A stretch of 64,000 bases of DNA, taken from Acidiferrobacterales bacterium (lineage in GTDB: Bacteria; Pseudomonadota; Gammaproteobacteria; Acidiferrobacterales; SPGG2). Position 1 is the stretch's first letter. Each line of letters opens with the position of its first letter. This document shows, one piece after another, positions 11,987 to 39,860 of the stretch. The DNA is taken from positions 3,142 to 67,141 of the forward strand of contig CAXMNC010000230.1 in assembly GCA_964194625.1 (NCBI GenBank). The letters run 5' to 3'. Made by a program: the position numbers and the translations under genes. Under the pieces are notes generated by a model, which had not been told where the DNA came from, did not search any database, and saw only the letters and a program-made list of their open reading frames with translations.

Positions 11987-14248
11987 CTACTTGATATTCC
12001 GGCGCCCAATCCCTTGCGGTTTGCGCCGCTTGAGTCGCTGCGACGCCTTCAAGCGTTCATCGGCAAGCTGAACCAACGTTTCCTGACTACCCTTACTGTT
12101 CTCTTCGCTCGGTCGCCGTTGCACATAGGTGCCATCCGAGCGCATATCCCATGCATTGCGATGGTCAGCGAGGTGAGTGTCGAGAATCTTTCGCAGTTCC
12201 GCCCGCAAGTCCGCATCTTCCACCGGTGCTAACACTTCCACGCGGTGCTCTAAATTGCGCATCATGATGTCGGCCGAGCCAATATAAAATTCTTCGTCAC
12301 CCCCATTTCGGAAATAGTAGATGCGACTATGTTCAAGAAACCGACCAATGATACTGATAACGTGCACGTTGTCAGACAGGCTGGGGATACCCGGTCGCAA
12401 CCGGCAGGAATCGCGCACAATGAGATCCACTCGTACACCAGCCTGTGAAGCCCGGTAGAGCGCTTTGGTAATGTCAACGTCTTCCAAGGCATTCATCTTG
12501 AATTGGATTAAGCCAGGCGATTTCTCTGAGTGCGAATCGATCTCACGTTTAATTTTCTTTAGTAACGATCGCTTCAACATCTTCGGCGCCGGCAAAATCT
12601 TGCGGTAGTCACGTTTGGGTGTATAGCCTGTGGTGAGATAATTGAAGAGTTCGGTCAGGTCTCGCCCAATCGTCTCATCGCAGGTCAGCAATCCAAGATC
12701 GGTATACAGTCTAGCGGTGCCGGCATGATAGTTGCCCGTACCAACATGGGCGTATAAGCGAAGCCCATTGTAATCGTTGCGAACGACGAGAATGGCCTTG
12801 CAGTGTGTCTTTAGGCCGACCACGCCGTAAGTGACATGGATACCCGCTTCCTCCATGCGACTTGCCCACCGAATGTTGGCTGCCTCATCGAATCTTGCCT
12901 TTAGCTCTACTGCGACCGCAACTTGCTTACCGTTTCTCGCAGCATCGATAAGGTAATCGATTACCTTGGTGTCGGCGGACGTACGGTAGAGGGCCATCTT
13001 GATTGCTCTCACCTTAGGATCTCGACTTGCTTCTTTTAAGAAACGTTCAACCGACGTAGAAAATGACTCATAAGGATGTTGTAGCAAGATCGAACCGACC
13101 TCGCGAATGATGTAAAAGATACTTCGCGAATCAACTAACTTTGGGTGATCGAGCGGCCGGTGTGGGGGGTCGTGAAGCAATGGCCCGTCAAGCGCGCTCA
13201 ACTCAAACAGGTCTCGCATCGCCATCATACCTTCGGTTTCGAACACATCGGCCGCTTTGTCTAAGCCCAGCTCTGCCGCCAGCATGCCGCGACGGTCTGA
13301 GTCCATATCCTTTTGCACAACTACGCGAACAATCCTTGCAAACTTTCGGCCGCGCACTTCGGATTCGATCATTGCTAATAGATCTTCCGCCCGATCTTCG
13401 TCGCGCGATGTGCTGGCATTTCGGGTTACATGGAATACTTCGCAGGCCTCGATCTGCATTTTGGGAAACAATAAATCGAGATTATGAGACATGACCTGTT
13501 CTAACGGGACCAACCGCTTGGAATCACTGACTCGCAGGAAACGCGGAATACCTGAACCTACCGGCACTTTAACGCGCGCGCGGTGCCGCTCTTCGTCATT
13601 ATGGTAGTGCAAGGTGACCAACAGATTGAGCGAGAGATTGGAAATAAACGGGAATGGATGAGCTGGATCCACCGCTTGTGGCGTTACCAGCGGAAAAATG
13701 TTCTTTAAGTAAATATTACGCAACTCCTCTTGCTCGTCTTTCTTGAGCGTGTCGTAGGCGACCACATGGATTCCGTGTTCCCGAAGCGCTTTCAGTAGTT
13801 TTGGGAGCAGCGCATCCTTTTGTGCCTCTATTTCGCGCACGACGGCGCAGCATTCCTCAATCTGTTGCTGCGGGGTGCGGCCATCCACGGTTAGATCGCG
13901 CAACCCAGCGCCGACTTGCTGTTTAAGACCACCGATGCGTTTCATGAAAAACTCATCAAGATTAGAACTTACGATGGCCATGAACTTCATGCGTTCGAGC
14001 AGTGGCGTACGGTTGTCTTGAGCCTCGTTTAATACGCGGCGATTGAATTCCAACCACGTCAACTCGCGATTCAAATAGAGGGCCGGAGAGGTGAAGTCGA
14101 TTTTCTCCTTGGCCTTCTTTTCGGGCCGCACCTTATCTGTTATGCGCTTGCTGGTGTCAGCCTTGCTATCTTTACCAGGTTTCTGAACCGTGGTAGGTGG
14201 TCTTGCATCTGCTACCGACGTCAGCGTAGCCGGTACTTTAGTCGTCAT
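11987..14248 (-). CDS. ppk1: polyphosphate kinase 1
   Basis: YLNRELTWLEFNRRVLNEA N-terminal signature, PPK1 length, and two C-terminal PLD-like domains. It carries a basic N-terminal extension. Confidence 0.95.
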   Translation of the reverse strand: MTTKVPATLTSVADARPPTTVQKPGKDSKADTSKRITDKVRPEKKAKEKIDFTSPALYLNRELTWLEFNRRVLNEAQDNRTPLLERMKFMAIVSSNLDEFFMKRIGGLKQQVGAGLRDLTVDGRTPQQQIEECCAVVREIEAQKDALLPKLLKALREHGIHVVAYDTLKKDEQEELRNIYLKNIFPLVTPQAVDPAHPFPFISNLSLNLLVTLHYHNDEERHRARVKVPVGSGIPRFLRVSDSKRLVPLEQVMSHNLDLLFPKMQIEACEVFHVTRNASTSRDEDRAEDLLAMIESEVRGRKFARIVRVVVQKDMDSDRRGMLAAELGLDKAADVFETEGMMAMRDLFELSALDGPLLHDPPHRPLDHPKLVDSRSIFYIIREVGSILLQHPYESFSTSVERFLKEASRDPKVRAIKMALYRTSADTKVIDYLIDAARNGKQVAVAVELKARFDEAANIRWASRMEEAGIHVTYGVVGLKTHCKAILVVRNDYNGLRLYAHVGTGNYHAGTARLYTDLGLLTCDETIGRDLTELFNYLTTGYTPKRDYRKILPAPKMLKRSLLKKIKREIDSHSEKSPGLIQFKMNALEDVDITKALYRASQAGVRVDLIVRDSCRLRPGIPSLSDNVHVISIIGRFLEHSRIYYFRNGGDEEFYIGSADIMMRNLEHRVEVLAPVEDADLRAELRKILDTHLADHRNAWDMRSDGTYVQRRPSEENSKGSQETLVQLADERLKASQRLKRRKPQGIGRRNIK

Positions 14249-14314
14249 GAATTTGTGTCCTCAACATTCGCGAGTTGGCCCGATATGGACATTGAACCTG
14301 GTTGCGTGCCCCAA

Positions 14315-15235
14315 TCAGTGAACTTCGGGCACGAAGTTTTGATCCGTGAGCGGCGGCCGTACGTAGCCCTGTGCTTCTTGACGTGGCGGCAACTCGATCG
14401 CCGGCGGTGTCAGGTCTTGGTAGGGGATCAGGCTCAGCAAGTGCTTGATACAATTTAGGCGCGCGTGCTTCTTCACATCCGCGTTTACGACACTCCAAGG
14501 CGCTTGCTTGATATCGGTGTGGGCAAACATGGTGTCTTTGGCTTTGGAGTATTCCACCCAGCGCTTGCGCGACTGCAGATCCATGGGGCTTAACTTCCAG
14601 CGGCGGGTCGGATCTTTGATGCGATTCTGGAAACGCCGCTCCTGCTCTTCGTCGCTGACCGAAAACCAATACTTAATCAGTTGAATACCGGAACGCACCA
14701 GCATACGCTCGAATTCCGGGCAACTACGCATGAATTCCTGATATTCGTCGTCGGTGCAGAATCCCATCACCCGTTCGACGTTGGCGCGGTTGTACCAACT
14801 GCGGTCAAGCAACACCATCTCGCCGGCGGCGGGGAGATGCGCAACATAACGTTGGAAGTACCACTGGGTCTTCTCGCGCTCGGTGGGCGCGGGTAGTGCT
14901 ACGACCCGGCAGATGCGAGGGCTCAGGCTTTGGCTAATACGCTTGATGACACCACCCTTACCGGCAGCATCCCGTCCTTCGAAGATGACAACAACACGCA
15001 GACCCTCATGTTTGATCCATTCTTGCAGTTTGACGAGCTCGATCTGTAGCTTGGCGAGCTCTTTCTCGTAGTCTTTGTTTTTTATCTTCTTGGATTTTTC
15101 CTTCTTGCCAGTGGCTTTGGCCGCTTCTTCCGCAAACCATTTTTTGGCTTTACTGACCTTAGGCTGCTTGTTGTCCTTGTTCTTCTTCTTTTCGTGGGCG
15201 TCTTTCGTGTCTGAGCGCTTGTTTCCCATTCTCAA
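14315..15235 (-). CDS. ppk2: polyphosphate kinase 2
   Basis: Block LQIELVKLQEWIKHEGLRVVVIFEGRDAAGKGGVIKRI (Walker A-like) is typical of PPK2. It has a Lys-rich N-terminal extension. Confidence 0.92.
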   Translation of the reverse strand: MRMGNKRSDTKDAHEKKKNKDNKQPKVSKAKKWFAEEAAKATGKKEKSKKIKNKDYEKELAKLQIELVKLQEWIKHEGLRVVVIFEGRDAAGKGGVIKRISQSLSPRICRVVALPAPTEREKTQWYFQRYVAHLPAAGEMVLLDRSWYNRANVERVMGFCTDDEYQEFMRSCPEFERMLVRSGIQLIKYWFSVSDEEQERRFQNRIKDPTRRWKLSPMDLQSRKRWVEYSKAKDTMFAHTDIKQAPWSVVNADVKKHARLNCIKHLLSLIPYQDLTPPAIELPPRQEAQGYVRPPLTDQNFVPEVH

Positions 15236-21197: not shown

Positions 21198-21317
21198 TTT
21201 GTAAGTATAAATAACCGGCGGGCAAAGACACAAAAAGCCTGTTGTTGACAGCACAACCGTTTGTGCGTTCCACTGGTCAATGCAAGGATGTATACCCCTG
21301 CAATCCGAGGTGGCTTT

Positions 21318-22352
21318 ATGGGCAAACTTTGGTCTAGTCTCGTCTTACTCGTCGCGCTCCTTTCGATGATGGTGAGTCCCGCCTATTCCACCATTTATGT
21401 CTGGAAGGATGCCAACGGCGTCAACAATGCCACCGACGATCCCCGACGGATTCCCAGCGGGGTGCGGGTTCAAACGCTGTCATACGATGCGGTGGCGCCG
21501 GTAAAAAAAGAAACATTGGCGTCGGTTAATGAAACCGAAACGTGGATACCAACGACCGAGGCGAAGACTAGTGATCATGTTTCACAGGGCGAATTTGCCG
21601 CGCTGCTGGCGGCCGAGCTCGGGCTGGGTGATGGCTTAAGCTCACAGGCGGCGGCGGATGTACTGGCTGATGCCCTGATTGCCCCGCGCCTCGGCAATTG
21701 GGACCTTAACGCACCCATGACCCAAGGGTTGCTTGATCGGCTTGGCAATCTTACGTTAGCGGCCGCGAGGGCGAGGCGCATTCCAATCGGACTCGACGAG
21801 GCGCGCTTCGCTTTTGACAGCGCCACCGCCTTGGCCGGCATTTCCGGGCACTTCGCCGACGCGCCTATATACGTAAACCCGCCAGTCGTTCGCAAACGCA
21901 TTATTGTTGTTGAAGGCCATCCGTTCGCGCATATCGATCCAAATCTGATTATCCACGTTGGCCATGGACACCGTCGTTTCACTCACAAACATGGCCACGG
22001 TTTGGGTTTCAAGCACGCGGTCCAGCCGCAGCGACACCGACGTCGTGCTAAAATGCATGTGGACTTAAAACACAAACGCAAAGTTGTCCATCGAAAGAAA
22101 AACCGAAGATACGTGTCTGGCGCTAATCGGCGCAGAGCCAAAGTCACCTATCGGCGTACGCACGTTCGCACTGCAAACGGTGGGGCCGGTCTCCGACGCA
22201 CCAGTGTCCGGCGCACAGTTACAAGTCGCTCAGTCTCAGTTGGACAACGTCGGGCCGGTATCCGACGCAGCGGCGGCGCCCGTATGCGGGCCACCCACGG
22301 TCGCCGTAGCATAGGGGGAGGCTTTCGGCGCGCAGTGAGAGTTACGCAGTAA
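21318..22352 (+). CDS. DUF4124-like exported protein with a polycationic Arg/His/Lys-rich C-terminal tail
   Basis: A signal peptide is followed by IYVWKDANGVNNATDDP (DUF4124 signature). The last roughly 130 aa are extremely basic and low-complexity. Confidence 0.65.
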   Translation: MGKLWSSLVLLVALLSMMVSPAYSTIYVWKDANGVNNATDDPRRIPSGVRVQTLSYDAVAPVKKETLASVNETETWIPTTEAKTSDHVSQGEFAALLAAELGLGDGLSSQAAADVLADALIAPRLGNWDLNAPMTQGLLDRLGNLTLAAARARRIPIGLDEARFAFDSATALAGISGHFADAPIYVNPPVVRKRIIVVEGHPFAHIDPNLIIHVGHGHRRFTHKHGHGLGFKHAVQPQRHRRRAKMHVDLKHKRKVVHRKKNRRYVSGANRRRAKVTYRRTHVRTANGGAGLRRTSVRRTVTSRSVSVGQRRAGIRRSGGARMRATHGRRSIGGGFRRAVRVTQ

Positions 22353-23689: not shown

Positions 23690-24664
23690 TTATCCGATGC
23701 CCTTTGAGGAAGTCGGGCGGATGGTTATCGTTGCACCACCGTTTTGTATGTAGGCCTTGACGATATCGCCCGCGATGGAGTTAGCGCGACCCTTCTTTTG
23801 TGCCTTCTTGAGGTAACCGCCTGCGAGTCTGATAAGCTCGGCCGCTTTTTCGACTTTCTCTGATAGTGACGCAACGCCAAGGCTGACCGTAATTGGAATC
23901 TGTGTGCCTTCGACGAGGAACTTGTGATCCTTGATTGCTCTACGAATCCGTTGTGCAAGCACTATGGCTCCCTCGTCACCAATATCTCGTGCTAACAGTG
24001 CAAACTGCGCATCGTCGTATCGCGCGAGGATGTCGTTGGCGCGTAGCATCGAATTGGTAACACATGCGAGCTCTTTTAGGATGGCATCGGTAGCAGGCTG
24101 CCCGTGTGTGCTGTTGATCTTCTTGAAGTGATCGATTTCGAACATTAGGAGAACCAAGGTGCCGCCGTGGCGTTTGACGTGAGCGTATTCGCCGTCAAGC
24201 CTATCAAGCACGTATTTCTTGGTGTATGCGCCGGTGATCGCGTCTTCGATACGACTCTTGGCAAGCTCTTGCTGGCAGTTCTGCTCGAGTTCATCCTGCC
24301 GCGAATACTTGAGAATGCAGTGGGAGCCGATCTGAATCTTGTCGCCATCCTGCAATTCTTGCCGTTGAATGCGGATACCGTTGATCGACGTACCATTACT
24401 GCTACCCAAGTCTACAACCATGGCGTTACCTCTTTCATCAATGGAGACTAGTGCATGCCGCCGACTGATACGCTGGTTTTCGATACAGATGTTGGCAGCG
24501 CGCCCGCGACCGATCACTGTCTCCGTTTCAGTCAAGGGGTACTCAGTACCGATGGGCCCGCCGTAGAGGAGCGTGAGGCACGCCTTTTCGCGCTGTGATA
24601 CACGGGGCACCACGGCGGCACGAGTGTCCTCTCGGATTGTCCTGGCTTCTGCTGCGTCGTTCAT
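23690..24664 (-). CDS. FHA domain plus degenerate GGDEF domain protein
   Basis: FHA pattern TVIGRGRAANICIENQRISRRHA ... GSSNGTSING. The GGDEF-domain fold has the active site replaced by YDDAQF. An RxxD (RAND) motif is kept five residues upstream. Confidence 0.88.
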   Translation of the reverse strand: MNDAAEARTIREDTRAAVVPRVSQREKACLTLLYGGPIGTEYPLTETETVIGRGRAANICIENQRISRRHALVSIDERGNAMVVDLGSSNGTSINGIRIQRQELQDGDKIQIGSHCILKYSRQDELEQNCQQELAKSRIEDAITGAYTKKYVLDRLDGEYAHVKRHGGTLVLLMFEIDHFKKINSTHGQPATDAILKELACVTNSMLRANDILARYDDAQFALLARDIGDEGAIVLAQRIRRAIKDHKFLVEGTQIPITVSLGVASLSEKVEKAAELIRLAGGYLKKAQKKGRANSIAGDIVKAYIQNGGATITIRPTSSKGIG

Positions 24665-26296: not shown

Positions 26297-26593
26297 TCAC
26301 TTGTCCTTGAATAGTTTGTCGCCCTTTTCGTCGATGATTTTCTTGGCCTTGAGGATCGAGTAGTTTGCGGCCTCGTCCCTGGCACCATGTGTGTCTACCC
26401 TAATAAAGTGTTCAGACTTGGATACCCCATCGATGTCCTTGGAAATATAGCCCTCGGTCGTCCATTGACCGCGGTCTTGTTTCGGCATGGGGACAATCGC
26501 GTATCCCTTGTAGGTAACAGCCTCCGGGTTGTCGGCTGGATCGCTGTCCTGCCGTTTGCTCGTTGCGAGTTTGCCTAGAAATTTTAGAATCAT
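26297..26593 (-). CDS. HlyU-like small protein (PF10115-type, by recollection)
   Basis: From Met at 26593: YKGYAIVPMP ... FIRVDTHGARDEAANYSILKAKKIIDEKGDKLF. This matches the pattern I recall for the alphaproteobacterial HlyU family. Confidence 0.6.
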   Translation of the reverse strand: MILKFLGKLATSKRQDSDPADNPEAVTYKGYAIVPMPKQDRGQWTTEGYISKDIDGVSKSEHFIRVDTHGARDEAANYSILKAKKIIDEKGDKLFKDK

Positions 26594-26650
26594 TTTGCGA
26601 TTGACTGACCGTACACCAGCAGCTGGCCTCAATAGAGCACTGTGACCCCC

Positions 26651-27670
26651 TTAGGTGTGCAGTTCGATGATATCACCATCGGCGACGGGATGGTCATGCC
26701 CCACCTGGCGTCCCTCGACCTCGTGGCCTCGCCAAAGCCGAGCGTACTTTAAGGTCTCCCCGAGGTCCCGGTGTACCATCACCGCCACATCGTGCACCGT
26801 CTGTCCGCGGCGAACGGTGAAAGGTCTGTCCTTGTCGGGTGGCCGTCCTGGTGGCTTGGTGTACACGCGCACAATTCCAAGGTTACGGAAAAGCCACGGC
26901 GCTATTTGGTCGAGCCCCTCACCGGTAGTCGCTGAGACCGCGATTGCGGGATACCGCAGATCGGCGAGCTCCTCGAACACCTGAAGCTCTTCCTGCAACG
27001 CTGGAATTAGATCTGCCTTGGTCGCAATCAGTAATACAGGTAGATGGATGGCGAACGGATTGAGCTCCTCCTCATCGCCGTCATCCGACGGTGTTTGGTC
27101 CCACTTTTCAGTCATGGTTACACCTTTTGCCGCCAGAATTTCGTGGACGGCCATCACCTGATCCACGCAGGCGGGATCACCGAGCTCTACCACTAGTAGA
27201 CACACGTCGGCCGGCTGCAGTGTGTTGGCAATCCACGGCACCGGATGCTCGGCGGCAACCGGGGGTAAATCGATAAGCTGGAAGTAGATATCTTCGTAGG
27301 GCAGCATCCCCGGCTGCGGGAACTGTGTAGTGAAGGGGTAGGGACCGGCAGGCGCGTGCGATCCTGTAAGCTTCGCTTGCAGGGTGGACTTACCGGTGTT
27401 GGGCGGACCGATTAGTGCGACCTGGGCGGCACCCTCGGGCCGGATGACGGTTGGCGGTCCGCCGCGGGCGCCGCCTTTCTTCGGTCCCGCTAGTTCTTCC
27501 GTGAGTTGCTTGACGCGAGTCTTGATATCGGCCTGCAGGTGATCAGTACCCTTGTGCTTGGGAATTGTGCGCAACATCTCACGCAGGCATTCTAGGCGTT
27601 CTTTGGAATCGCGCGCCTGTCTGAAGGCCGCCTCAGCCGCTTTGTATTCCGGTGTCGTGTTGGTGGGCAT
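26651..27670 (-). CDS. Obg/DRG-family GTPase with C-terminal TGS domain
   Basis: DRG-like N-terminus (KHKGTDHLQADIKTRVKQL), G1 GPPNTGKST, G4 TKADL, and a C-terminal TGS-like segment (RVYTKPPG ... VHDVAVMVHRDL). Confidence 0.85.
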   Translation of the reverse strand: MPTNTTPEYKAAEAAFRQARDSKERLECLREMLRTIPKHKGTDHLQADIKTRVKQLTEELAGPKKGGARGGPPTVIRPEGAAQVALIGPPNTGKSTLQAKLTGSHAPAGPYPFTTQFPQPGMLPYEDIYFQLIDLPPVAAEHPVPWIANTLQPADVCLLVVELGDPACVDQVMAVHEILAAKGVTMTEKWDQTPSDDGDEEELNPFAIHLPVLLIATKADLIPALQEELQVFEELADLRYPAIAVSATTGEGLDQIAPWLFRNLGIVRVYTKPPGRPPDKDRPFTVRRGQTVHDVAVMVHRDLGETLKYARLWRGHEVEGRQVGHDHPVADGDIIELHT

Positions 27671-27712
27671 GGCGTCTGGTCGAGTGTCTTGATCGTCGCA
27701 ACCACGACCCAA

Positions 27713-28939
27713 TCAAGGCTGAGTCAACTTGATCTCGATCCGGCGGTTACGCTTGTAAGCATCCTCGGAGATCCGGTCATCGAGGGGACGGAACTCCCCA
27801 AATCCGGTGGCGGCCAGTCGCACCGGTGAGATACCCTGCGCGATCAGGTAGTTAACGACCGATAGGGCGCGTGCCGTGGACAACTCCCAGTTGGAAGGAA
27901 ACCTCGCGGTCTGGATCGGGCGGCGGTCGGTGTGACCATCGACGCGCAAGATCCAATCAATGTCCGACGGGATCTTACTGGTGACGGTCTTGAGTGTTTC
28001 TGCCAATCGCGCGAGCTGGTGCCTGCCCGCTGGCATGAGGGTGGCTGAGGCGGTGGGGAACAACAGTTCTGACGGGAAAACGAAGCGATCGCCAACGATA
28101 CGAATGTCTGGATGATCGCCTAGGGCTTCGCGCAATCGGCCAAAGAACTCCGAGCGATATCGATTGAGCTCCTGGACTTTGCGTGCTAGCGCGACATTAA
28201 GGCGCTGTCCGAGTTCAGCGATCTTTACTTTCTGTTCTTCGACTTTGCTTTCCTCAAGGGCGAGGGCGGCCGAGAGCCTGGCGAGCTGCTCACGCAGGGC
28301 GGCAATCTGTTGATTCAACAAGGCCACACGGGCGCGCGACTCTTCCTTCACTTCCGTGAGGTCTGCCTCTAGGGTCTTGCTACGATCGCGCGCGACGACG
28401 ATTTCCTCGTCGCGTTGTTTTACGGTTTCTGCGAGTCCAGCAACCCGAGTCTCCAATTCAGTCCGCCGCTGGCGTAAGGTAGCGATGTTCTCCTGTAGGC
28501 TGGCAATCTCCTGAAGTTGTAGCTCGATCTTTTCCTTGTCGGTGGCGATGATCGTCGAGGCGTCCTCGAGTTTTGCTTCGAGTTGGGAAGCCTCGGCCTC
28601 GGCCACTTCCGCCCTTTGTGTGGTCACAGCAAGTTGGCTCGTCAACGAATCGCGTTCTGCAAGCGTGGCTTTGAGCCGACTCGAAAGCTCCGTGATCCTT
28701 TCACCAAGCTCAGCACTTTTCTCGCGTTCCAGTGACAATGTGTTTGCGAGCTCGTTGACCTGCAGTGATAACTCGTCAAGCGCCCGTTCGCGTCCAATCA
28801 GTCTTTCGTTGAGAAAGAACTGGGCCAGCACGAAGATAAGTACCACAAAGATAAATACCAACAGCACCGATGCAAGCGCATCGACAAAAGCGGGCCAAAC
28901 ATTTACGGTGTAGCGGCTGCGGCGTGTAAGCGCGAACAT
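27713..28939 (-). CDS. MotB-like protein with long coiled coil and OmpA/MotB peptidoglycan-binding domain
   Basis: N-terminal TM WPAFVDALASVLLVFIFVV with the conserved Asp, about 230 aa of heptad repeats, and a C-terminal OmpA-like block RVDGHTDRRPI ... STARALSV ... NRRIEIKL. Confidence 0.85.
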   Translation of the reverse strand: MFALTRRSRYTVNVWPAFVDALASVLLVFIFVVLIFVLAQFFLNERLIGRERALDELSLQVNELANTLSLEREKSAELGERITELSSRLKATLAERDSLTSQLAVTTQRAEVAEAEASQLEAKLEDASTIIATDKEKIELQLQEIASLQENIATLRQRRTELETRVAGLAETVKQRDEEIVVARDRSKTLEADLTEVKEESRARVALLNQQIAALREQLARLSAALALEESKVEEQKVKIAELGQRLNVALARKVQELNRYRSEFFGRLREALGDHPDIRIVGDRFVFPSELLFPTASATLMPAGRHQLARLAETLKTVTSKIPSDIDWILRVDGHTDRRPIQTARFPSNWELSTARALSVVNYLIAQGISPVRLAATGFGEFRPLDDRISEDAYKRNRRIEIKLTQP

Positions 28940-28992
28940 AGCGAGTATCTAAATGCTGCCCCTAATAACTAGTTAGGTAGATTCTCCATGGG

Positions 28993-30150
28993 CTAGTCCC
29001 CGGATTTTTTGCCGCGTGCAGGACGCGGCCTTTCGGCAATGCTACGCGCCAGCAGCCTAAATTCATCACGTAACTCACTCCCGAATTGACTGCGAGCGGC
29101 AGACACTTCTTCCAGTAAACGCTGTAGGCCAACGTCCATATTACGCAGGTGATCGCGCATTTCCTCGTTTCCAGATAGACTGTTGGCGACCTGGTTGGCC
29201 AGCTCCGCCGTTACCGGTTGCAAATCGGTCTGGTTTTTTGTGAGAGTCAAAATCAACTTCTGCTCCGAGCGCAGCTGATCGGTGAGTTCGGCTAGCTGTT
29301 CGCTTAACTTCGCGAGATTATTCTGCACCGCGCGTCGGTCTTCCTCACCACGAGCGACGCTGCGCTGTAACTGATTAAGATTTTCCGCGGTCTGCTCGAG
29401 CAGGGCTTCGATATAGACTGGCAGTGGCTGACCACCTTCTGCCGTTAGCGCGCTACTTGGCAAGTGCGTGAGTTCCGACAGCCACTCTTCCAAATAGTTA
29501 TAAAAGCGGTTCTGTGCGTGTCCTGCTTGCAGGTCAAGAACGCCTAACACTAGCGCGCCGCCCAGGCCAAACAACGACGAGCTGAAGGCGGTACCCATCC
29601 CGGTTAGCGGACCTTGCAGGTCGCGCTTGAGTTCATCGAAAATCGCGCTGGGGTCACCAGTCCCGGCGGAAAGACCACCAATCACGTTACCCACGCCTGC
29701 GACGGTATCCAGCAGTCCCCAGAAAGTGCCGAGCAAACCGAGAAAAATCATTAAGCCGATCATATAGCGGGAAATATCACGGGACTCATCCAGGCGCAGA
29801 CGGATGCCGTCCAGTAATGAACGCATGGCCATGGCGGATATTCGGAATTGTTCCTGATCGCGGCCGCTGAACATCTTTGCCATCGATGCCAGCAGGCGGG
29901 GCGCCTCGTCTGACGGCGGCAGGGCGTCTACGTCCCGTACGTCGTCGATCCAAGCGGTCGCCGGCCCAAGAGTCAAGACCTGCAGAAAGTTCACGCCGAC
30001 ACCGATCACCAGCACCCCGAGTATCATGCCGTTGAAGATCTGGTTGGCGTCAAACGCCGTGCGCAGCGGAGGAAAAAGCAGGGCGCACACTACACCCACT
30101 GCACCGAGAAACAGTACCATCCATACCAACATGCGTTGGGAATCACTCAC
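28993..30150 (-). CDS. MotA/TolQ/ExbB proton-channel family protein with C-terminal coiled-coil tail
   Basis: Four TM helices, channel signature GLMIFLGLLGTFWGLL ... GMGTAFSSSLFGLGGALVLG, then a tail of about 130 aa that is rich in heptads. Confidence 0.8.
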   Translation of the reverse strand: MSDSQRMLVWMVLFLGAVGVVCALLFPPLRTAFDANQIFNGMILGVLVIGVGVNFLQVLTLGPATAWIDDVRDVDALPPSDEAPRLLASMAKMFSGRDQEQFRISAMAMRSLLDGIRLRLDESRDISRYMIGLMIFLGLLGTFWGLLDTVAGVGNVIGGLSAGTGDPSAIFDELKRDLQGPLTGMGTAFSSSLFGLGGALVLGVLDLQAGHAQNRFYNYLEEWLSELTHLPSSALTAEGGQPLPVYIEALLEQTAENLNQLQRSVARGEEDRRAVQNNLAKLSEQLAELTDQLRSEQKLILTLTKNQTDLQPVTAELANQVANSLSGNEEMRDHLRNMDVGLQRLLEEVSAARSQFGSELRDEFRLLARSIAERPRPARGKKSGD

Positions 30151-30332
30151 GGCTGTTATGCTATGCGTATAGTGGCGGTCCTAGTAACGTCACGTTACCA
30201 CACGATCACCTTGCCTGTTGACTCGGACAACCCTGCCCCGGAAATTACAATAATATCGCCGCACACCAGGCATTGACACAGGAGCCTTGCAACTGACTTT
30301 ACTCAGATCTCGTCTAACGCCAATATTCGCTT

Positions 30333-31031
30333 ATGAGCACTGTCACTGACAACCGGATGGGCGCCGTACCCAAACGCCGATTCGGGTGGCTGCATATCAC
30401 ACTGTTTTTGTTGGCTACCGTCGTACTAACAACGATCGCGACCGTTTGGATCGTAAAGACCTCTATCTTTCCCTCGGAGTTCAAGCCCGTGAAATTGAGT
30501 GCTAAGGAGGAACAGATCCTTAGCGTCAAACTCGAAAGGCTAGGGGCACTTGGAACCGATAGACGCTATGGGCGCAAGAGCTCGGCGGAAACTACCGGTG
30601 ACGCGCTGACGCCGGAACGTTATACCGAAGAAGGCGCTAGCCGCGACATTGCCCTGAGGGAACGAGAACTCAACGCGTTGTTGGCCAAGAACACCGATCT
30701 TGCCAGCAAACTCGCGATCGATTTAGCTGACGATCTGATTAGCGCGAAGCTCCTCGTGCCGATCGACGAGGACTTCCCGTTTGTGGGTGGTCAGACCTTG
30801 AAAGTTAGGGCCGGGGTCGAGATAGCCTATTCCAACGGTAGGCCGATTGTGGTCCTAAAGGGTGTGAGTGTCATGGGTGTTCCGCTCCCCAATGCTTGGA
30901 TGGGCGGGATCAAAAACATCGATCTCGTGAAGGAGTTCGGTGGGCATAACGGGTTTTGGAAGGCGTTTGCCGATGGCGTGGAAGATATCCGCGTGGAAGA
31001 AGGACAACTGAGAATCAAGTTGAAGCAATAA
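30333..31031 (+). CDS. membrane-anchored hypothetical protein
   Basis: 232 aa with a single N-terminal TM (WLHITLFLLATVVLTTIATVWIV). Divergent from the MotA-like gene. No family recognised. Confidence 0.6.
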   Translation: MSTVTDNRMGAVPKRRFGWLHITLFLLATVVLTTIATVWIVKTSIFPSEFKPVKLSAKEEQILSVKLERLGALGTDRRYGRKSSAETTGDALTPERYTEEGASRDIALRERELNALLAKNTDLASKLAIDLADDLISAKLLVPIDEDFPFVGGQTLKVRAGVEIAYSNGRPIVVLKGVSVMGVPLPNAWMGGIKNIDLVKEFGGHNGFWKAFADGVEDIRVEEGQLRIKLKQ

Positions 31032-31086
31032 ATGGGCAAGGAAGATTTCAGTCAAGAAAGGCGCTTGTACCTGACCTGGTGACACC

Positions 31087-31524
31087 ATGACATCGGCTAG
31101 AGAACGGGCCAAGGCGTTAGCCGAAGAGATGAGCAAGGTCATGAAGGTGGCCAAGGCGGCCGAGGCGCGAGCCAAGGAGCTGAGCCAAGAGGTTCTGCAA
31201 GCCTTGGCCGAGGCCAAGGCAGAGGCCGAAGCGGCTCGCACCGTTGTGCAATACCCGTCCGGTCGCTATGAATGTAAACGCTGTGGTCAGGTCGCGTTGT
31301 TTACAGAGCCATGTCAGGAATTGCCGGCCTGTGGTAACTGTGGCAGTGTCGAATACGATGGCGCTAAACCCAAGGTAACGAAGATCAAACCCCCGCCCCC
31401 CAAGAAATTCGCGGCCGGCATTTACGAGTGTAGCGATTGTGGCGCACGTATGGTTGTGGCCGAGGAAACGGACGTGTTGTCTGCCTGCGATATATGCGGC
31501 GCCGGCAAGCTCAAGGCCGTGTAA
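31087..31524 (+). CDS. zinc-ribbon protein with N-terminal coiled coil
   Basis: Two CxxC-Xn-CxxC ribbons (CKRCG...CGNCG and CSDCG...CDICG) follow an Ala/Lys/Glu-rich helix. Confidence 0.65.
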
Positions 31525-37958: not shown

Positions 37959-38768
37959 ATGAAAAACGTCCTCAGGCGGGACGAAACCAGGATGGACCAA
38001 CCCTCCACCGCCGTCGATGATCTGTACAGCGACGATTCGCCACCCACGTTTATTACCCCGCTGCCCGACAAGGCGAAAACGGGAGAAACAGCCGTGCCTA
38101 CGAGCCGGCGGCTATGGGCGCTGTTCGACAGGATGCGTAATCGCGAGCACGACCCTTACCGGCATCTTCTGATGCTGCGATTCGTGCTTCTGAATCTAGC
38201 GGCCTTTGCGCTCTTAGGTGTTGCTTATGTTCATGGTTTTGTCGATATGGTCGTCGCCGCCGATCGAACATACTTGTCTGTGGTCATTGGCCTCGTGTTC
38301 TTGGTCGGCCTTGGACTTTGCGGGCGCAAGGTCTGGCAAACGAGCCGAGAGCTCGATCGGGTGCGGAAACCCGATGCGTTTGCTCGATCTAGCGAGCTAG
38401 AGCGGTTGCGATCACGCGACCCAGAGGGCCGCGGAAATCTCATCAGCGTCTTGCGCTTGACGCTTTCCCACCGCATTTCCATCGTGCGCCACATCGCCAA
38501 CACTCTGGTACTGCTCGGACTTATCGGTACCGTGCTTGGCTTTATCATCGCACTGTCTGGTGTCGATGCAGAGCGTGCCTCAGACATCGATGCGATCACG
38601 CCGATGATCTCTACTTTGATAAGTGGCATGTCGACGGCGCTTTACACAACGTTGGTGGGCGCCATCCTGAACGTATGGCTCATGGCCAACCATCAGATGT
38701 TGACAAGCGGTACGGTTAAACTTATGGCTTTGCTAATGGAGTCGGCGGAGACGCATGCGCGAGATTGA
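37959..38768 (+). CDS. MotA/TolQ/ExbB-like proton-channel family protein
   Basis: TM helices plus the channel signature LVLLGLIGTVLGFIIAL ... ISGMSTALYTTLVGAILNVWL; 269 aa. Confidence 0.75.
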   Translation: MKNVLRRDETRMDQPSTAVDDLYSDDSPPTFITPLPDKAKTGETAVPTSRRLWALFDRMRNREHDPYRHLLMLRFVLLNLAAFALLGVAYVHGFVDMVVAADRTYLSVVIGLVFLVGLGLCGRKVWQTSRELDRVRKPDAFARSSELERLRSRDPEGRGNLISVLRLTLSHRISIVRHIANTLVLLGLIGTVLGFIIALSGVDAERASDIDAITPMISTLISGMSTALYTTLVGAILNVWLMANHQMLTSGTVKLMALLMESAETHARD

Positions 38769-39360
38769 TTTCTTTGATGACGAGAGCGGCGCTACCGTAT
38801 TTCGCGATGTCATCATGTTAGCCCTGGCTGGATTTGTCATGCTGGTGCTGCTGTTACTACCTCATCTAAATCCTCGAGCGACCCCACAAGATCCGACCCC
38901 TAGGCCGGGCAACGTAATGGTCGAACTTCGTTGGCCGGATGAGTTGAATGTCGACGTTGACCTCTGGGTGCAAGCGCCGGGAGATGTACCGGTCGGTTAT
39001 TCAAATCAAGGTAGCGCTATCTTTAATCTGTTGCGCGATGACCTCGGTCACATTAACGACGCCACCGACCTCAATTATGAATTTTCGTACAGTCGTGGTG
39101 TGCCGGCGGGAGAATATACGGTCAATCTTCATCTCTACAGAAATCTGGCGAACGTCTACCCAATTCCGGCGGTCGTTGCGGTAAGCGTGAAGAATTCACC
39201 GAATTTGCCCGCTCAACAAATTCTGTCGACCAAACTTAATCTGTCGCATGAAGATGAAGAACTCACGGCCTTTCGATTCAAGCTTGATGAAGAAGGGCGT
39301 CTACTAAGTGGTAGTGTCCACAATCTGCCGCGGCCGTTGCGGGCATCAACTAGGCGATGA
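38755..39360 (+). CDS. single-pass membrane protein, ExbD/TolR/MotB-like TM with Asp plus periplasmic beta-rich domain
   Basis: Overlaps the upstream gene by 14 nt. TM is FRDVIMLALAGFVMLVLLLL with Asp at the cytoplasmic edge. The periplasmic block VELRWPDELNVDVDLWVQAPGD...GEYTVNLHLY resembles the DUF2135-type sandwich from memory. Confidence 0.6.
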   Translation: MREIDFFDDESGATVFRDVIMLALAGFVMLVLLLLPHLNPRATPQDPTPRPGNVMVELRWPDELNVDVDLWVQAPGDVPVGYSNQGSAIFNLLRDDLGHINDATDLNYEFSYSRGVPAGEYTVNLHLYRNLANVYPIPAVVAVSVKNSPNLPAQQILSTKLNLSHEDEELTAFRFKLDEEGRLLSGSVHNLPRPLRASTRR

Positions 39361-39860
39361 ATTACGTCTTCTATCTATTCGTCATGTCGGTGGGACTGAT
39401 AACAGCGCTTGCTGCGATCAGCATCTGGTCCCCACGCGCACTCTGGGTGAAAGTCGGCGCACTGACGCTAGTTACGCTGTTTTTGCCTGCTGCTTATGTC
39501 AGTTTGGTAGAGTTGTTGAGTCGTCCTAAGCCGATCGCCCTTGAATGGGGGAATCGTGATCTATCGAAGGCGGTGGTGTTACATGCTGACTGGCGGGAAG
39601 GTGAGAGCATCTATCTGTGGCTCAGGGTTCCCGGGATTGATGATCCACGAGCGTACGTGCTTCCTTGGAATCAAAAACAGGCTGAACAGCTCTTTGCCGC
39701 TCAGCGGGAGGCGGAATCACGACGGACCGAAGTGCATGTCGAACGTCCCTTTGGTCGTGACCAGGAGGAGAGTCAGCAACTAGTGTTTTATGCTGTGCCG
39801 CAGCCAGCTCCACCACCCAAAGTGACACCGGCCAACAACACGTTTTTCTATCAGCCGTGA
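39357..39860 (+). CDS. two-TM membrane protein, hypothetical
   Basis: ATGA start/stop overlap with the upstream gene. Two N-terminal helices precede a soluble domain of about 100 aa. No family recognised. Confidence 0.55.
   Translation: MNYVFYLFVMSVGLITALAAISIWSPRALWVKVGALTLVTLFLPAAYVSLVELLSRPKPIALEWGNRDLSKAVVLHADWREGESIYLWLRVPGIDDPRAYVLPWNQKQAEQLFAAQREAESRRTEVHVERPFGRDQEESQQLVFYAVPQPAPPPKVTPANNTFFYQP

What the first reader, a model, noticed from the sequence alone, without database searches (positions are those of the whole stretch)
26297..30150. Orphan MotA/MotB-like stator pair with coiled-coil extensions, in one block with a DRG-type GTPase and a HlyU-like protein
Four minus-strand genes are separated by only 53, 42 and 57 nt. 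Gene 28993-30150 has four predicted TM helices and the MotA/TolQ/ExbB channel signature (GLMIFLGLLGTFWGLL ... GMGTAFSSSLFGLGGALVLG), followed by a heptad-rich tail of about 130 aa. Gene 27713-28939 has a MotB-type TM with the conserved Asp (WPAFVDALASVLLVF), about 230 aa of nearly uninterrupted coiled coil, and an OmpA/MotB peptidoglycan-binding domain. No flagellar, Tol-Pal, TonB or gliding genes occur anywhere in the window, so this ion-driven motor unit has no obvious client. A tail-bearing A subunit plus a PG-anchored B subunit is the logic of ZorAB in Zorya. ZorC/D/E-like genes are absent, however, and the next gene is an Obg/DRG-family GTPase with a TGS domain. I do not know a characterised system with this composition.
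Basis: partly seen in the sequence, partly recalled or inferred. Interest (0 to 1): 0.8.

Follow-up and report, generated by a model that had tools for sequence, protein, structure and literature searches.

The report
Orphan stator pair; GTPase neighbour incidental
The two membrane genes are a real ion-driven "stator" pair from a large, widespread family with no known function, but the GTPase and HlyU-like genes beside them are chance neighbours found only in this lineage, so there is no four-gene system.

Summary
The four minus-strand genes exist as described. A (28993-30150) has four TM segments. Its fold matches only the A subunits of 5:2 ion-driven motors (TolQ, ExbB, ZorA, MotA). It hits PADLOC ZorA models but misses the Pfam MotA_ExbB threshold. 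B (27713-28939) has an invariant TM aspartate, a ~230-residue coiled coil and a MotB/MotS-like peptidoglycan-binding domain. B is a bona fide member of NCBIfam NF006543 (PRK09039).

The A-B pair is conserved in hundreds of Alpha-, Beta- and Gammaproteobacteria: about 760 clusters at 50% identity, and 78 of 78 testable loci. It is chromosomal and often lies in housekeeping synteny. It was never found on phages or true plasmids.

The GTPase and HlyU-like genes lie next to the pair only in relatives at least 87% identical. They are absent from 80 of 80 other A-B loci and from the 70-76% relatives. In the reverse test, 42 of 43 GTPase-centred loci lack A-B and HlyU. The proposed "stator + GTPase + HlyU" system is therefore not supported.

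What remains is an uncharacterised, effector-less, ZorAB-like motor family. The cytoplasmic tail of A is fixed in length and conserved. The periplasmic coiled coil of B varies widely in length.

The parts
28993..30150 (-). A subunit: 385 aa, four TM segments, ZorA/TolQ/ExbB/MotA-type channel core plus a cytoplasmic coiled-coil tail
   Evidence: ORF. PADLOC ZorA1 5.4e-14 and ZorA3 2e-8. Pfam MotA_ExbB only 0.012. AF2 model pLDDT 67.7. The Foldseek top 50 are all TolQ, ExbB, ZorA or MotA. Four hydrophobic segments.
29575..29727 (-). A residues 142-192. Includes invariant T142 (GLLGTFWG, TM3) and S190-S192 (AFSSSLFG, TM4), the putative ion-pathway polar residues.
   Evidence: Invariant in 21 close homologs and at least 95% conserved in 81 broad homologs. 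Analogous to the ZorA Thr147/Ser184 filter (PMC11946911). The analogy is an inference.
29017..29433 (-). Cytoplasmic coiled-coil tail of A (residues ~240-378). Length is fixed and sequence conserved across the family.
   Evidence: Heptad register. AF2 helices 245-324 and 329-372. Gap-free across 81 sequences, with P244, Y246, A249-E252, T254, A255, E269, H334, R336, R353, R361 and R369 at least 95% conserved.
27713..28939 (-). B subunit: 408 aa, with a MotB-type TM segment, a long periplasmic coiled coil and an OmpA/MotB-type PG-binding domain. Member of NCBIfam NF006543 (PRK09039.1-2).
   Evidence: NF006543 443.9 bits against a cutoff of 305. Pfam OmpA 3e-17. AF2 pLDDT 75.
28880..28882 (-). 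Codon of B Asp20, the universally conserved proton-carrying aspartate of 5:2 motor B subunits
   Evidence: W15, V19, D20 and F31 are invariant in 75 of 75 homologs.
28121..28810 (-). Periplasmic coiled coil of B (residues 44-273): a variable-length spacer (44 to ~200) followed by a length-invariant 73-residue helix (201-273)
   Evidence: No proline in 44-276 and a constant heptad register with a stutter near residue 190. AF2 helices 15-187 and 195-273 with a low-confidence break at 186-195. Length statistics. Block indels.
27722..28102 (-). PG-binding OmpA/MotB-type domain of B (residues 280-406) with the GHTD and NWELSxxRA motifs
   Evidence: Motifs conserved in at least 72 of 75 homologs. 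PDB profile hits: MotS 2e-26, MotB 3e-21, PomB 7e-17. Foldseek: MotS TM 0.84, E = 1.7e-12.
30250..30279 (-). Promoter-like site upstream of A (consensus match only)
   Evidence: Three such sites were found in the region against 1.8 expected, so this is weak evidence.
26651..27670 (-). DRG/Obg-type GTPase with a C-terminal TGS domain. It is an adjacent gene and not part of the conserved unit.
   Evidence: MMR_HSR1 5e-14 and TGS 1e-14. Its family is named 'ribosome-interacting GTPase 1' by JGI. Not linked to A-B outside the window's own lineage.
26297..26593 (-). Small PF10115 'HlyU' family protein. It is an adjacent gene and not part of the conserved unit.
   Evidence: PF10115 5.4e-23. Absent beside A-B in 80 of 80 loci. 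Present beside the GTPase in only 1 of 43 loci, the near-identical L100.

Best explanation
Genes A and B encode a self-contained, peptidoglycan-anchored, proton-driven motor unit of the 5:2 (A5B2) type. It belongs to a large, chromosomally inherited proteobacterial family that has not been characterised.

Inferred mechanism, by analogy with MotAB and ZorAB:
- Two B chains sit inside a ring of five A chains.
- Protons pass via B Asp20 and A Thr142/Ser190-192.
- B is held to the cell wall by its MotB/MotS-like domain, so ion flow turns or strains the A ring.
- The output is carried by the conserved, fixed-length cytoplasmic coiled-coil tail of A to a partner that is not encoded nearby.

The periplasmic coiled coil of B is an evolutionarily elastic spacer between the motor and a fixed 'helix + OmpA' anchor module.

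The GTPase and HlyU-like genes are independent genes. They came to lie downstream of B through a rearrangement in this lineage. They may be co-transcribed here, but they are not components of the system.

Shown: gene content, family membership, conserved residues, fold, and the conservation or non-conservation of linkage. Inferred: stoichiometry, proton use, rotation, and the role of the tail.
For: Pair conservation: a B homolog lies immediately downstream of A in 78 of 78 loci where the contig allows it. This also holds in S. meliloti.

Motor features:
- A's predicted fold matches only TolQ, ExbB, ZorA and MotA.
- All 21 family members tested hit ZorA1 and ZorA3 models, the best at 2.7e-16.
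- T142 and S190/S192 are invariant.
- B residues W15, V19, D20 and F31 are invariant, and the PG-binding motifs are kept.
- B's domain is closest to MotS, MotB and PomB.

Family size: 761 clusters at 50% identity with E <= 1e-30.

Housekeeping character:
- Alphaproteobacterial synteny with EF-P, rpmE and an ABC exporter.
- No phage hits. The only 'plasmid' hits are replicons of 3.5-4.6 Mb.
- GC content of 0.56-0.57 over this stretch against 0.50-0.58 across the window.

Tail versus spacer: the A tail is gap-free and conserved. The B spacer varies from ~70 to ~420 aa, while the 73-aa helix and the OmpA domain are invariant.

GTPase and HlyU are incidental:
- 0 of 80 A-B loci carry them.
- They are absent in relatives at 75%, 76% and 70% identity and present only at 94% and 87%.
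- In one MAG (GCA_046760105.1), A-B and the GTPase lie on different contigs.
- Only 1 of 43 informative GTPase loci has B and HlyU alongside, and it is 96% identical to the window.
Against: - Pfam MotA_ExbB is below threshold for A (15.8 bits against 22.9).
- A sequence profile of A finds no MotA, ExbB or ZorA in the PDB.
- NCBIfam ZorA and TolQ models do not hit A.
- The A model has only moderate confidence (pLDDT 67.7), and Foldseek E-values are weak (2.6e-3 and above). The superfamily assignment is therefore consistent but not overwhelming on any single line of evidence.
- No experiment or multimer model supports 5:2 stoichiometry or rotation.
- No intrinsic terminator separates B, the GTPase and the HlyU-like gene. 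Co-transcription and some lineage-specific functional coupling cannot be excluded.
- The biological role is unknown.
Confidence: 0.75

Rival explanations
1. The four genes form one functional system in this lineage. The stator pair senses or energises something at the envelope, and the DRG-type GTPase and the HlyU-like protein act as its cytoplasmic effector and regulator.
For: The genes share a strand and have gaps of 53, 42 and 57 nt. No terminator-like site lies between them on the minus strand. The arrangement is kept in relatives at 94%, 87% and 96% identity. The conserved A tail lacks a known partner.
Against: Linkage is absent in 80 of 80 other A-B loci and in relatives at 70-76% identity. 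In 42 of 43 GTPase loci neither A-B nor HlyU is nearby. In the MAG with a 75% relative, the GTPase is on another contig. Where the block is kept, the whole 15-kb neighbourhood is syntenic, so that conservation is uninformative.
Confidence: 0.07
2. It is a Zorya-like anti-phage system. A ZorAB-type envelope sensor would have effectors that are unrecognised or encoded elsewhere.
For: A hits ZorA1 and ZorA3 models, and B hits ZorB models. The architecture of a tailed A subunit plus a PG-anchored B subunit resembles ZorAB (PMC11946911). Foldseek TM-scores are highest for ZorA.
Against: No ZorC, D, E, F or G, and no other PADLOC hit in the flanking genes scanned. The tail is ~139 aa (about 20 nm if extended), against ~70 nm in the solved E. 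coli type I ZorA. The family is chromosomal, spans three proteobacterial classes, lies in housekeeping synteny, and is absent from phages and true plasmids. B carries a long coiled coil that ZorB lacks. NCBIfam ZorA models do not hit A.
Confidence: 0.08
3. It is an accessory flagellar stator, a MotAB/MotCD/MotPS-type paralog that drives the flagellar rotor. Automatic annotations ('flagellar motor protein MotA', 'chemotaxis protein MotB') suggest this.
For: B's PG-binding domain is closest to MotS, MotB, PomB and MotD. Some sources name homologs MotA or MotB.
Against: All NCBIfam MotB, MotS and MotD equivalog scores are far below their cutoffs, for example 104 against 283. A fails Pfam MotA_ExbB and is nearer to ZorA models. 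The A cytoplasmic loop is only ~65 aa and is followed by a coiled-coil tail. B has a ~230-aa coiled coil in place of the plug and linker. No flagellar genes lie in the window or in the conserved neighbourhoods.
Confidence: 0.04
4. It is a Tol-Pal-like envelope tether compressed into two genes. B would combine a TolR-like motor helix, a TolA-like long helical region and a Pal-like PG-binding domain, and would use the proton-motive force for envelope integrity or division. This is a specific version of the best explanation rather than a true alternative.
For: The top Foldseek hits for A are TolQ. B's layout is TM-Asp, long helix, then OmpA domain. In Alphaproteobacteria a secreted OmpA-domain protein is encoded immediately upstream of A in 49 of 78 loci. 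The context is housekeeping.
Against: There is no outer-membrane-directed element. B ends in a PG-binding domain and not in a TolB/Pal- or TonB-box-binding domain. The spacer length varies about six-fold, which is hard to reconcile with a periplasm-spanning function. A has a conserved cytoplasmic tail, which suggests an inward-directed output.
Confidence: 0.2

Closest known systems
ZorAB, the membrane core of Zorya anti-phage systems (E. coli and Shewanella structures 8qyd, 8vvn)
   Same: The A subunit has the MotA/ExbB-type last two TM helices with polar Thr/Ser residues and a C-terminal cytoplasmic coiled-coil tail. The B subunit has a TM aspartate and a C-terminal PG-binding domain. No separate plug helix is evident. 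This is the best HMM similarity for A (PADLOC ZorA1 and ZorA3 hit 21 of 21 members) and gives the highest Foldseek TM-scores. Full-length B aligns to ZorB over 243 columns.
   Different: No ZorC/D, ZorE or ZorF/G. The tail is ~139 aa, fixed in length and conserved, rather than hundreds of residues long. A has four TM segments against three in ZorA. B has a coiled coil of 70-420 aa that ZorB lacks. The family is chromosomal and in housekeeping synteny, not in mobile elements or defence islands. NCBIfam ZorA models do not hit A.
Flagellar stator units MotAB, PomAB and MotPS
   Same: Four-TM A subunit. B has the TM aspartate and an OmpA-type PG-binding domain. B's domain is closest in sequence and fold to MotS, MotB and PomB.
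   Different: No flagellar context. The A cytoplasmic loop is short, A carries a coiled-coil tail, and it fails Pfam MotA_ExbB. B has a long coiled coil in place of the plug and linker. All NCBIfam MotB, MotS and MotD scores are well below their cutoffs.
TolQR-TolA-Pal and ExbBD-TonB
   Same: The top Foldseek hits for A are TolQ and ExbB. The GLLGTFWG motif resembles what I recall of the TolQ/ExbB TM2 motif (from memory, not tested here). The concept of a pmf-driven inner-membrane motor coupled to a long helical periplasmic element and an OmpA-type PG binder is shared.
   Different: B is not TolR/ExbD-like beyond the TM aspartate. There is no TolA, TonB, TolB or Pal gene. The helical element and the PG binder are fused to the B subunit. 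A has an extra N-terminal TM segment and a cytoplasmic tail.
NCBIfam NF006543 / PRK09039 'peptidoglycan-binding protein' (a database family with no characterised member found)
   Same: B scores 443.9 bits against a cutoff of 305. The S. meliloti ortholog carries this product name and lies next to a 'MotA/TolQ/ExbB proton channel family protein'.
   Different: Nothing differs. This is the family B belongs to. It is a name without a function.

Membership tests
MotA/TolQ/ExbB/ZorA superfamily (A subunits of 5:2 motors) | Match to Pfam PF01618 MotA_ExbB above the gathering threshold | tested here: not met
   The window's A scores 15.8 bits (E = 0.012) against a cutoff of 22.9. Of 21 relatives, 19 hit at E <= 10, the best at 5.3e-5. 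The S. meliloti ortholog just passes, 23.9 bits.
MotA/TolQ/ExbB/ZorA superfamily (A subunits of 5:2 motors) | Fold: long paired TM/cytoplasmic helices as in TolQ, ExbB, ZorA and MotA | tested here: met
   The Foldseek top 50 PDB hits are exclusively TolQ, ExbB, ZorA and MotA (E from 2.6e-3, probability ~1, TMt up to 0.58). The model pLDDT is only 67.7.
MotA/TolQ/ExbB/ZorA superfamily (A subunits of 5:2 motors) | Conserved polar residues on the last two TM helices, and an adjacent B-subunit gene with a TM aspartate | tested here: met
   T142 and S190/S192 are invariant. B is downstream in 78 of 78 loci, with D20 invariant.
MotA/TolQ/ExbB/ZorA superfamily (A subunits of 5:2 motors) | A5B2 stoichiometry and ion-driven rotation | not testable with these tools
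   Only single-chain prediction is available. This needs a multimer model, cryo-EM or biochemistry.
MotB/ZorB-type B subunits | N-in single TM segment with an invariant Asp, plus a C-terminal OmpA-like PG-binding domain with its binding motifs | tested here: met
   TM at 21-39 with an N-terminal charge of +3. D20 in 75 of 75 homologs, and GHTD and NWELSxxRA in at least 72 of 75. PF00691 at 3e-17. MotS 2e-26.
MotB/ZorB-type B subunits | Plug helix after the TM segment (flagellar MotB/PomB only) | tested here: inconclusive
   AF2 predicts the TM helix to run without a break into the coiled coil (15-187). No separate amphipathic plug is evident. A monomer model cannot settle this.
NCBIfam NF006543 (PRK09039.1-2) peptidoglycan-binding protein | Whole-protein score above the curated cutoff | tested here: met
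   443.9 bits against 305. NF006545 is also met, 380.4 against 372.
Zorya anti-phage system (types I-III) | ZorA-like and ZorB-like core genes | tested here: inconclusive
   PADLOC gives ZorA1 5.4e-14, ZorA3 2e-8 and ZorB3 2.4e-21, and 21 of 21 relatives hit ZorA models. However, the NCBIfam ZorA models give no hit, and the ZorB hits cover mainly the generic OmpA domain.
Zorya anti-phage system (types I-III) | Adjacent effector genes (ZorC+ZorD, ZorE, or ZorF+ZorG) | tested here: not met
   No PADLOC Zor hit in the four flanking genes scanned, namely the GTPase, the HlyU-like gene and the two upstream genes. None appears among the conserved neighbours of 78 + 13 loci.
Zorya anti-phage system (types I-III) | Long ZorA tail (~70 nm in the solved E. 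coli type I system) and patchy distribution in mobile elements or defence islands | tested here: not met
   The tail is ~139 aa, about 20 nm, and fixed in length. No phage hits and no true plasmid hits. Housekeeping synteny.
Flagellar stator (MotAB, PomAB, MotPS, MotCD) | NCBIfam equivalog score above cutoff, and a flagellar genomic or functional context | tested here: not met
   MotD scores 104 against 283, MotS 93 against 264, and MotB 57 against 250-301. No flagellar genes in the window or in the conserved neighbourhoods.
Tol-Pal / Ton systems | TolQ/ExbB equivalog match, a TolR/ExbD-type B subunit, and a TolA/TonB partner | tested here: not met
   A has no TIGR02796 or ExbB hit at E <= 0.01. 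B carries an OmpA domain, unlike TolR or ExbD. No TolA, TonB or Pal genes nearby.
Obg/DRG-type GTPases with a TGS domain (the neighbouring gene) | MMR_HSR1 G domain plus a C-terminal TGS domain | tested here: met
   PF01926 at 5.1e-14 and PF02824 at 1e-14. JGI names homologs 'ribosome-interacting GTPase 1'. No NCBIfam Obg or YchF equivalog cutoff is reached. The G3 motif reads DLPP, with D134, L135 and P136 invariant.

The most novel reading that the evidence does not exclude
The A-B pair represents a distinct, undescribed class of 5:2 ion-driven motor. It would be a chromosomal, vertically inherited, effector-less relative of ZorAB, found across Alpha-, Beta- and Gammaproteobacteria. Its conserved short cytoplasmic tail would signal or do work on an unknown housekeeping partner. 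Its elastic periplasmic coiled coil would report on or organise the cell wall. This lineage could be the stock from which Zorya's envelope sensor was recruited. A weaker add-on is that, in the window's genus only, the motor has become transcriptionally coupled to a DRG-like GTPase.
Probability: 0.35. Interest if true: 0.7.

Novelty: new variant of a known kind. Interest (0 to 1): 0.4.

Why it matters
5:2 ion-driven motors power flagella, Ton uptake, Tol-Pal envelope maintenance, gliding and type 9 secretion, and Zorya immunity. Each newly understood branch has revealed a new way of carrying the inner-membrane proton-motive force to another place.

This family is large. It has about 760 clusters at 50% identity and is present in genetically tractable species such as Sinorhizobium meliloti and Azospirillum. 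Its motor residues are intact, so it almost certainly does work. Yet it has no known client and only generic names in the databases.

It has a MotB-like wall anchor on an elastic coiled coil and a conserved cytoplasmic tail. That combination makes it a natural comparator for how ZorAB senses envelope perturbation.

For the scan itself, the practical lesson is negative. The eye-catching 'stator + GTPase + HlyU' block comes from local gene order and should not be propagated as a system.

Tried and rejected
- Sequence-profile search of A against the PDB returned only coiled-coil noise. It was replaced by a fold comparison.
- Literature searches for PRK09039, MotAB-like, stator-like and ZorAB-like systems, 5:2 motors, and rhizobial annotations found no paper on this family. 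I also read PMC12505986, PMC11946911 and PMC11890865. The library holds open-access papers only, so absence is not proof.
- PF24161, precomputed on many B homologs, could not be identified in the held Pfam copy. Only coiled-coil noise appeared.
- I tested a helical-hairpin model for B, in which the tip grows and the height of the PG-binding domain stays constant. In close relatives the variation does concentrate at the predicted break. Across the family, however, helix 1 varies from 67 to 348 aa while helix 2 is fixed at 73 aa. The model is therefore not supported as a general rule.
- I looked for a recurrent association of the GTPase with MotA-type genes. It lies next to a different MotA cluster in L095 and L098. 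That is only 2 of 43 informative loci, so I rejected it as a general link.
- I searched the window for a counterpart of the alphaproteobacterial third gene (a secreted OmpA protein). None was found.
- In beta/gamma loci the only shared neighbour besides A and B was an FHA/GGDEF protein, in 3 of 13 loci. This is a weak lead and I did not pursue it.

Full report
**Observation.**
- A is 28993-30150 (385 aa).
- B is 27713-28939 (408 aa).
- The GTPase is 26651-27670 (339 aa from its ATG).
- The small protein is 26297-26593 (98 aa).
- The gaps are 53, 42 and 57 nt.

Hydropathy gives four TM segments in A (8-26, 43-61, 129-147, 187-207). It gives one in B (21-39), with a +3 N-terminus. Pfam confirms OmpA in B (3e-17), MMR_HSR1 plus TGS in the GTPase, and PF10115 'HlyU' in the small protein (5e-23). 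B has no proline between residues 44 and 276 and keeps a nearly constant heptad register. A's residues 240-378 are also heptad-rich.

The one inaccuracy concerns the rest of the window. It holds no flagellar, Tol-Pal, TonB or gliding genes. It does hold a second MotA_ExbB-family gene (37959-38768, PF01618 8e-9), followed by two small membrane-protein genes.

**What A and B are.**

A is not a textbook MotA.
- Pfam MotA_ExbB scores only 15.8 bits (E = 0.012; cutoff 22.9).
- A profile of the family finds no motor protein in the PDB by sequence.
- NCBIfam TolQ and ZorA models are silent.
- The PADLOC ZorA1 and ZorA3 models hit A (5.4e-14 and 2e-8). They hit all 21 relatives tested, the best at 2.7e-16.
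- An AF2 model (pLDDT 67.7) retrieves only TolQ, ExbB, ZorA and MotA among its top 50 PDB matches. ZorA gives the highest TM-scores.
- T142 (GLLGTFWG) and S190/S192 (AFSSSLFG) are invariant. I infer that they correspond to the ZorA Thr147/Ser184 ion filter described in PMC11946911.

B is unambiguous.
- It scores 443.9 bits against NCBIfam NF006543 (PRK09039.1-2, 'peptidoglycan-binding protein'; cutoff 305).
- W15, V19, D20 and F31 are invariant in 75 of 75 homologs, and the GHTD and NWELSxxRA PG-binding motifs are kept.
- Its C-terminal domain is closest in sequence and fold to MotS, MotB and PomB.
- AF2 (pLDDT 75) predicts the TM helix to run straight into a helix spanning 15-187. A low-confidence break follows at 186-195, then a second helix at 195-273, then the OmpA-type domain.

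**Distribution.** Homolog searches for A and B both saturate at 8000 hits. The exhaustive search gives 761 clusters (50% identity) at E <= 1e-30, mostly 350-400 aa long. The best 80 come from Rhodospirillales, Azospirillum, Acetobacteraceae, Kiloniellales and others, plus Beta- and Gammaproteobacteria. The window itself matches Acidiferrobacterales MAGs: the GTPase and B both have hits listed at 100% identity. No phage carries the family. The only 'plasmid' hits are replicons of 3.5-4.6 Mb, including a 3.72-Mb Sinorhizobium meliloti replicon deposited as pSymB. There the pair is annotated 'MotA/TolQ/ExbB proton channel family protein' plus 'peptidoglycan-binding protein' and sits beside an ABC exporter and rpmE.

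**Linkage tests.**

Forward test, starting from A-B:
- Among 80 genome loci, B follows A in all 78 where the contig allows it. Neither a GTPase nor a HlyU homolog occurs within +/-8 kb in any of them.
- Relatives at 75%, 76% and 70% identity also lack both genes.
- Only relatives at 94% and 87% identity have them. In those, the whole neighbourhood is syntenic: the 232-aa protein, the zinc-ribbon protein, ABC-F, the esterase, the MFS transporter and FHA-GGDEF.

Reverse test, starting from the GTPase:
- The GTPase belongs to its own large family ('ribosome-interacting GTPase 1').
- Of 43 informative GTPase-centred loci, only L100 has B and HlyU alongside, and it is 96% identical to the window. 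Two loci have the other MotA cluster. Forty have none of these.
- In MAG GCA_046760105.1, the A-B pair and the GTPase lie on different contigs.

No terminator-like site separates the four genes. Co-transcription in this lineage is possible, but the adjacency is a recent rearrangement and not a conserved system.

**Other neighbours.** In Alphaproteobacteria a secreted protein with a Pro/Ala-rich region and an OmpA domain is encoded about 60 bp upstream of A in 49 of 78 loci. The window has no counterpart. In 13 beta/gamma loci nothing but A and B is shared, apart from FHA/GGDEF proteins in three of them. Alphaproteobacterial synteny involves EF-P, rpmE and an ABC exporter. This speaks for a housekeeping element rather than a mobile defence element.

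**Anatomy that bears on mechanism.** A's tail is gap-free over 81 sequences from three classes. It keeps P244, Y246, A249-E252, T254, A255, E269, H334, R336, R353, R361 and R369 in at least 95% of them. This implies a specific assembly or partner. B behaves in the opposite way. The 73-residue helix before the OmpA domain and the OmpA domain itself are length-invariant. The segment between the TM helix and that module ranges from about 70 to about 420 residues. In close relatives, helix 1 differs by exact heptad multiples (-21, -7, +7, +28). Such a range, roughly 10-60 nm if extended, argues against a perpendicular ruler that spans the periplasm. It also refutes, as a general rule, the constant-height hairpin model that I tested.

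**Best explanation (confidence 0.75).** A-B is a stand-alone, PG-anchored, proton-driven 5:2-type unit of an uncharacterised proteobacterial family. The stoichiometry, the use of protons and the rotation are inferred. Its output is probably carried by the conserved cytoplasmic tail. The GTPase and the HlyU-like protein are incidental neighbours.

**Rivals.**
- A lineage-specific four-gene system (0.07).
- Zorya-like defence (0.08). Against it: no effectors, a short fixed tail, housekeeping synteny, and no presence on mobile elements.
- An accessory flagellar stator (0.04). Against it: all equivalog scores are below cutoff, there is no flagellar context, and the architecture is wrong.
- A Tol-Pal-like tether (0.2). 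This is a specific sub-version of the best explanation.

**Known versus new.** B's family already exists in NCBIfam, and the pair is routinely auto-annotated. I found no functional study in the held literature. The 2025 survey of MotAB relatives (PMC12505986) and the Zorya structure papers (PMC11946911 and PMC11890865) do not describe it either. It fails the membership tests for Zorya, flagellar stators and Tol/Ton, while sharing their motor core. I therefore rate it a new variant of a known kind, of moderate interest (0.4).

Noticed in passing
window 37959-39860 (+): A second MotA/ExbB-type operon: a 269-aa MotA_ExbB protein (PF01618 8e-9; weak NCBIfam ZorA_2 and TolQ hits) followed by overlapping genes for 201-aa and 167-aa membrane proteins with no family. 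The trio is conserved in L095 and L098, where it lies divergently next to the DRG-like GTPase.
   Followed up: partly
L003-L044 and others, for example L022 6813-7943 and L007 5278-6297 (+): In 49 of 78 mostly alphaproteobacterial loci, a secreted protein with a Pro/Ala-rich region and an OmpA domain is encoded about 60 bp upstream of A on the same strand. It may be a third component there. It is absent from the window and from S. meliloti.
   Followed up: partly
window 27713-28939 and alignment A3: B homolog lengths are quantised (376, 390, 397, 408, 425, 429, 446, 474 and up to 657 aa). In close relatives, helix 1 of the coiled coil differs by exact heptad multiples, and the main indel hotspot coincides with the heptad stutter and the AF2 break near residue 190.
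   Followed up: yes
window 26651-27670 (-): The DRG-like GTPase has an unusual G3 motif, DLPP, where I would expect DxxG (from memory). D134, L135 and P136 are invariant in 18 homologs. In the window its G4 reads TKAD, against an NKAD consensus.
   Followed up: no
L089 8141-8457 (the 94%-identical relative): The A-B spacer is 317 bp here, with a called 65-aa ORF, against 53 bp in the window. This is an insertion of unknown nature between the two motor genes.
   Followed up: no
window 23690-24664 (-); L081 10652-11590; L054 7412-7882: FHA and/or GGDEF proteins recur near the A-B pair in three gammaproteobacterial lineages, including one immediately upstream of A in L054. This linkage is more persistent than that of the GTPase, but it is still weak.
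   Followed up: no
window 21261-22352 (+): A DUF4124 protein whose C-terminal ~150 residues are extremely rich in Arg, Lys and His.
   Followed up: no
window 11987-15235 (-): The polyphosphate kinase genes PPK1 (753 aa) and PPK2 (306 aa) are adjacent on the same strand.
   Followed up: no
window 30333-31524 (+): Divergent from A lie a 232-aa single-TM protein with no family hit and a 145-aa protein with a coiled coil and a double zinc ribbon. They are conserved with A-B only in relatives at least 87% identical.
   Followed up: partly
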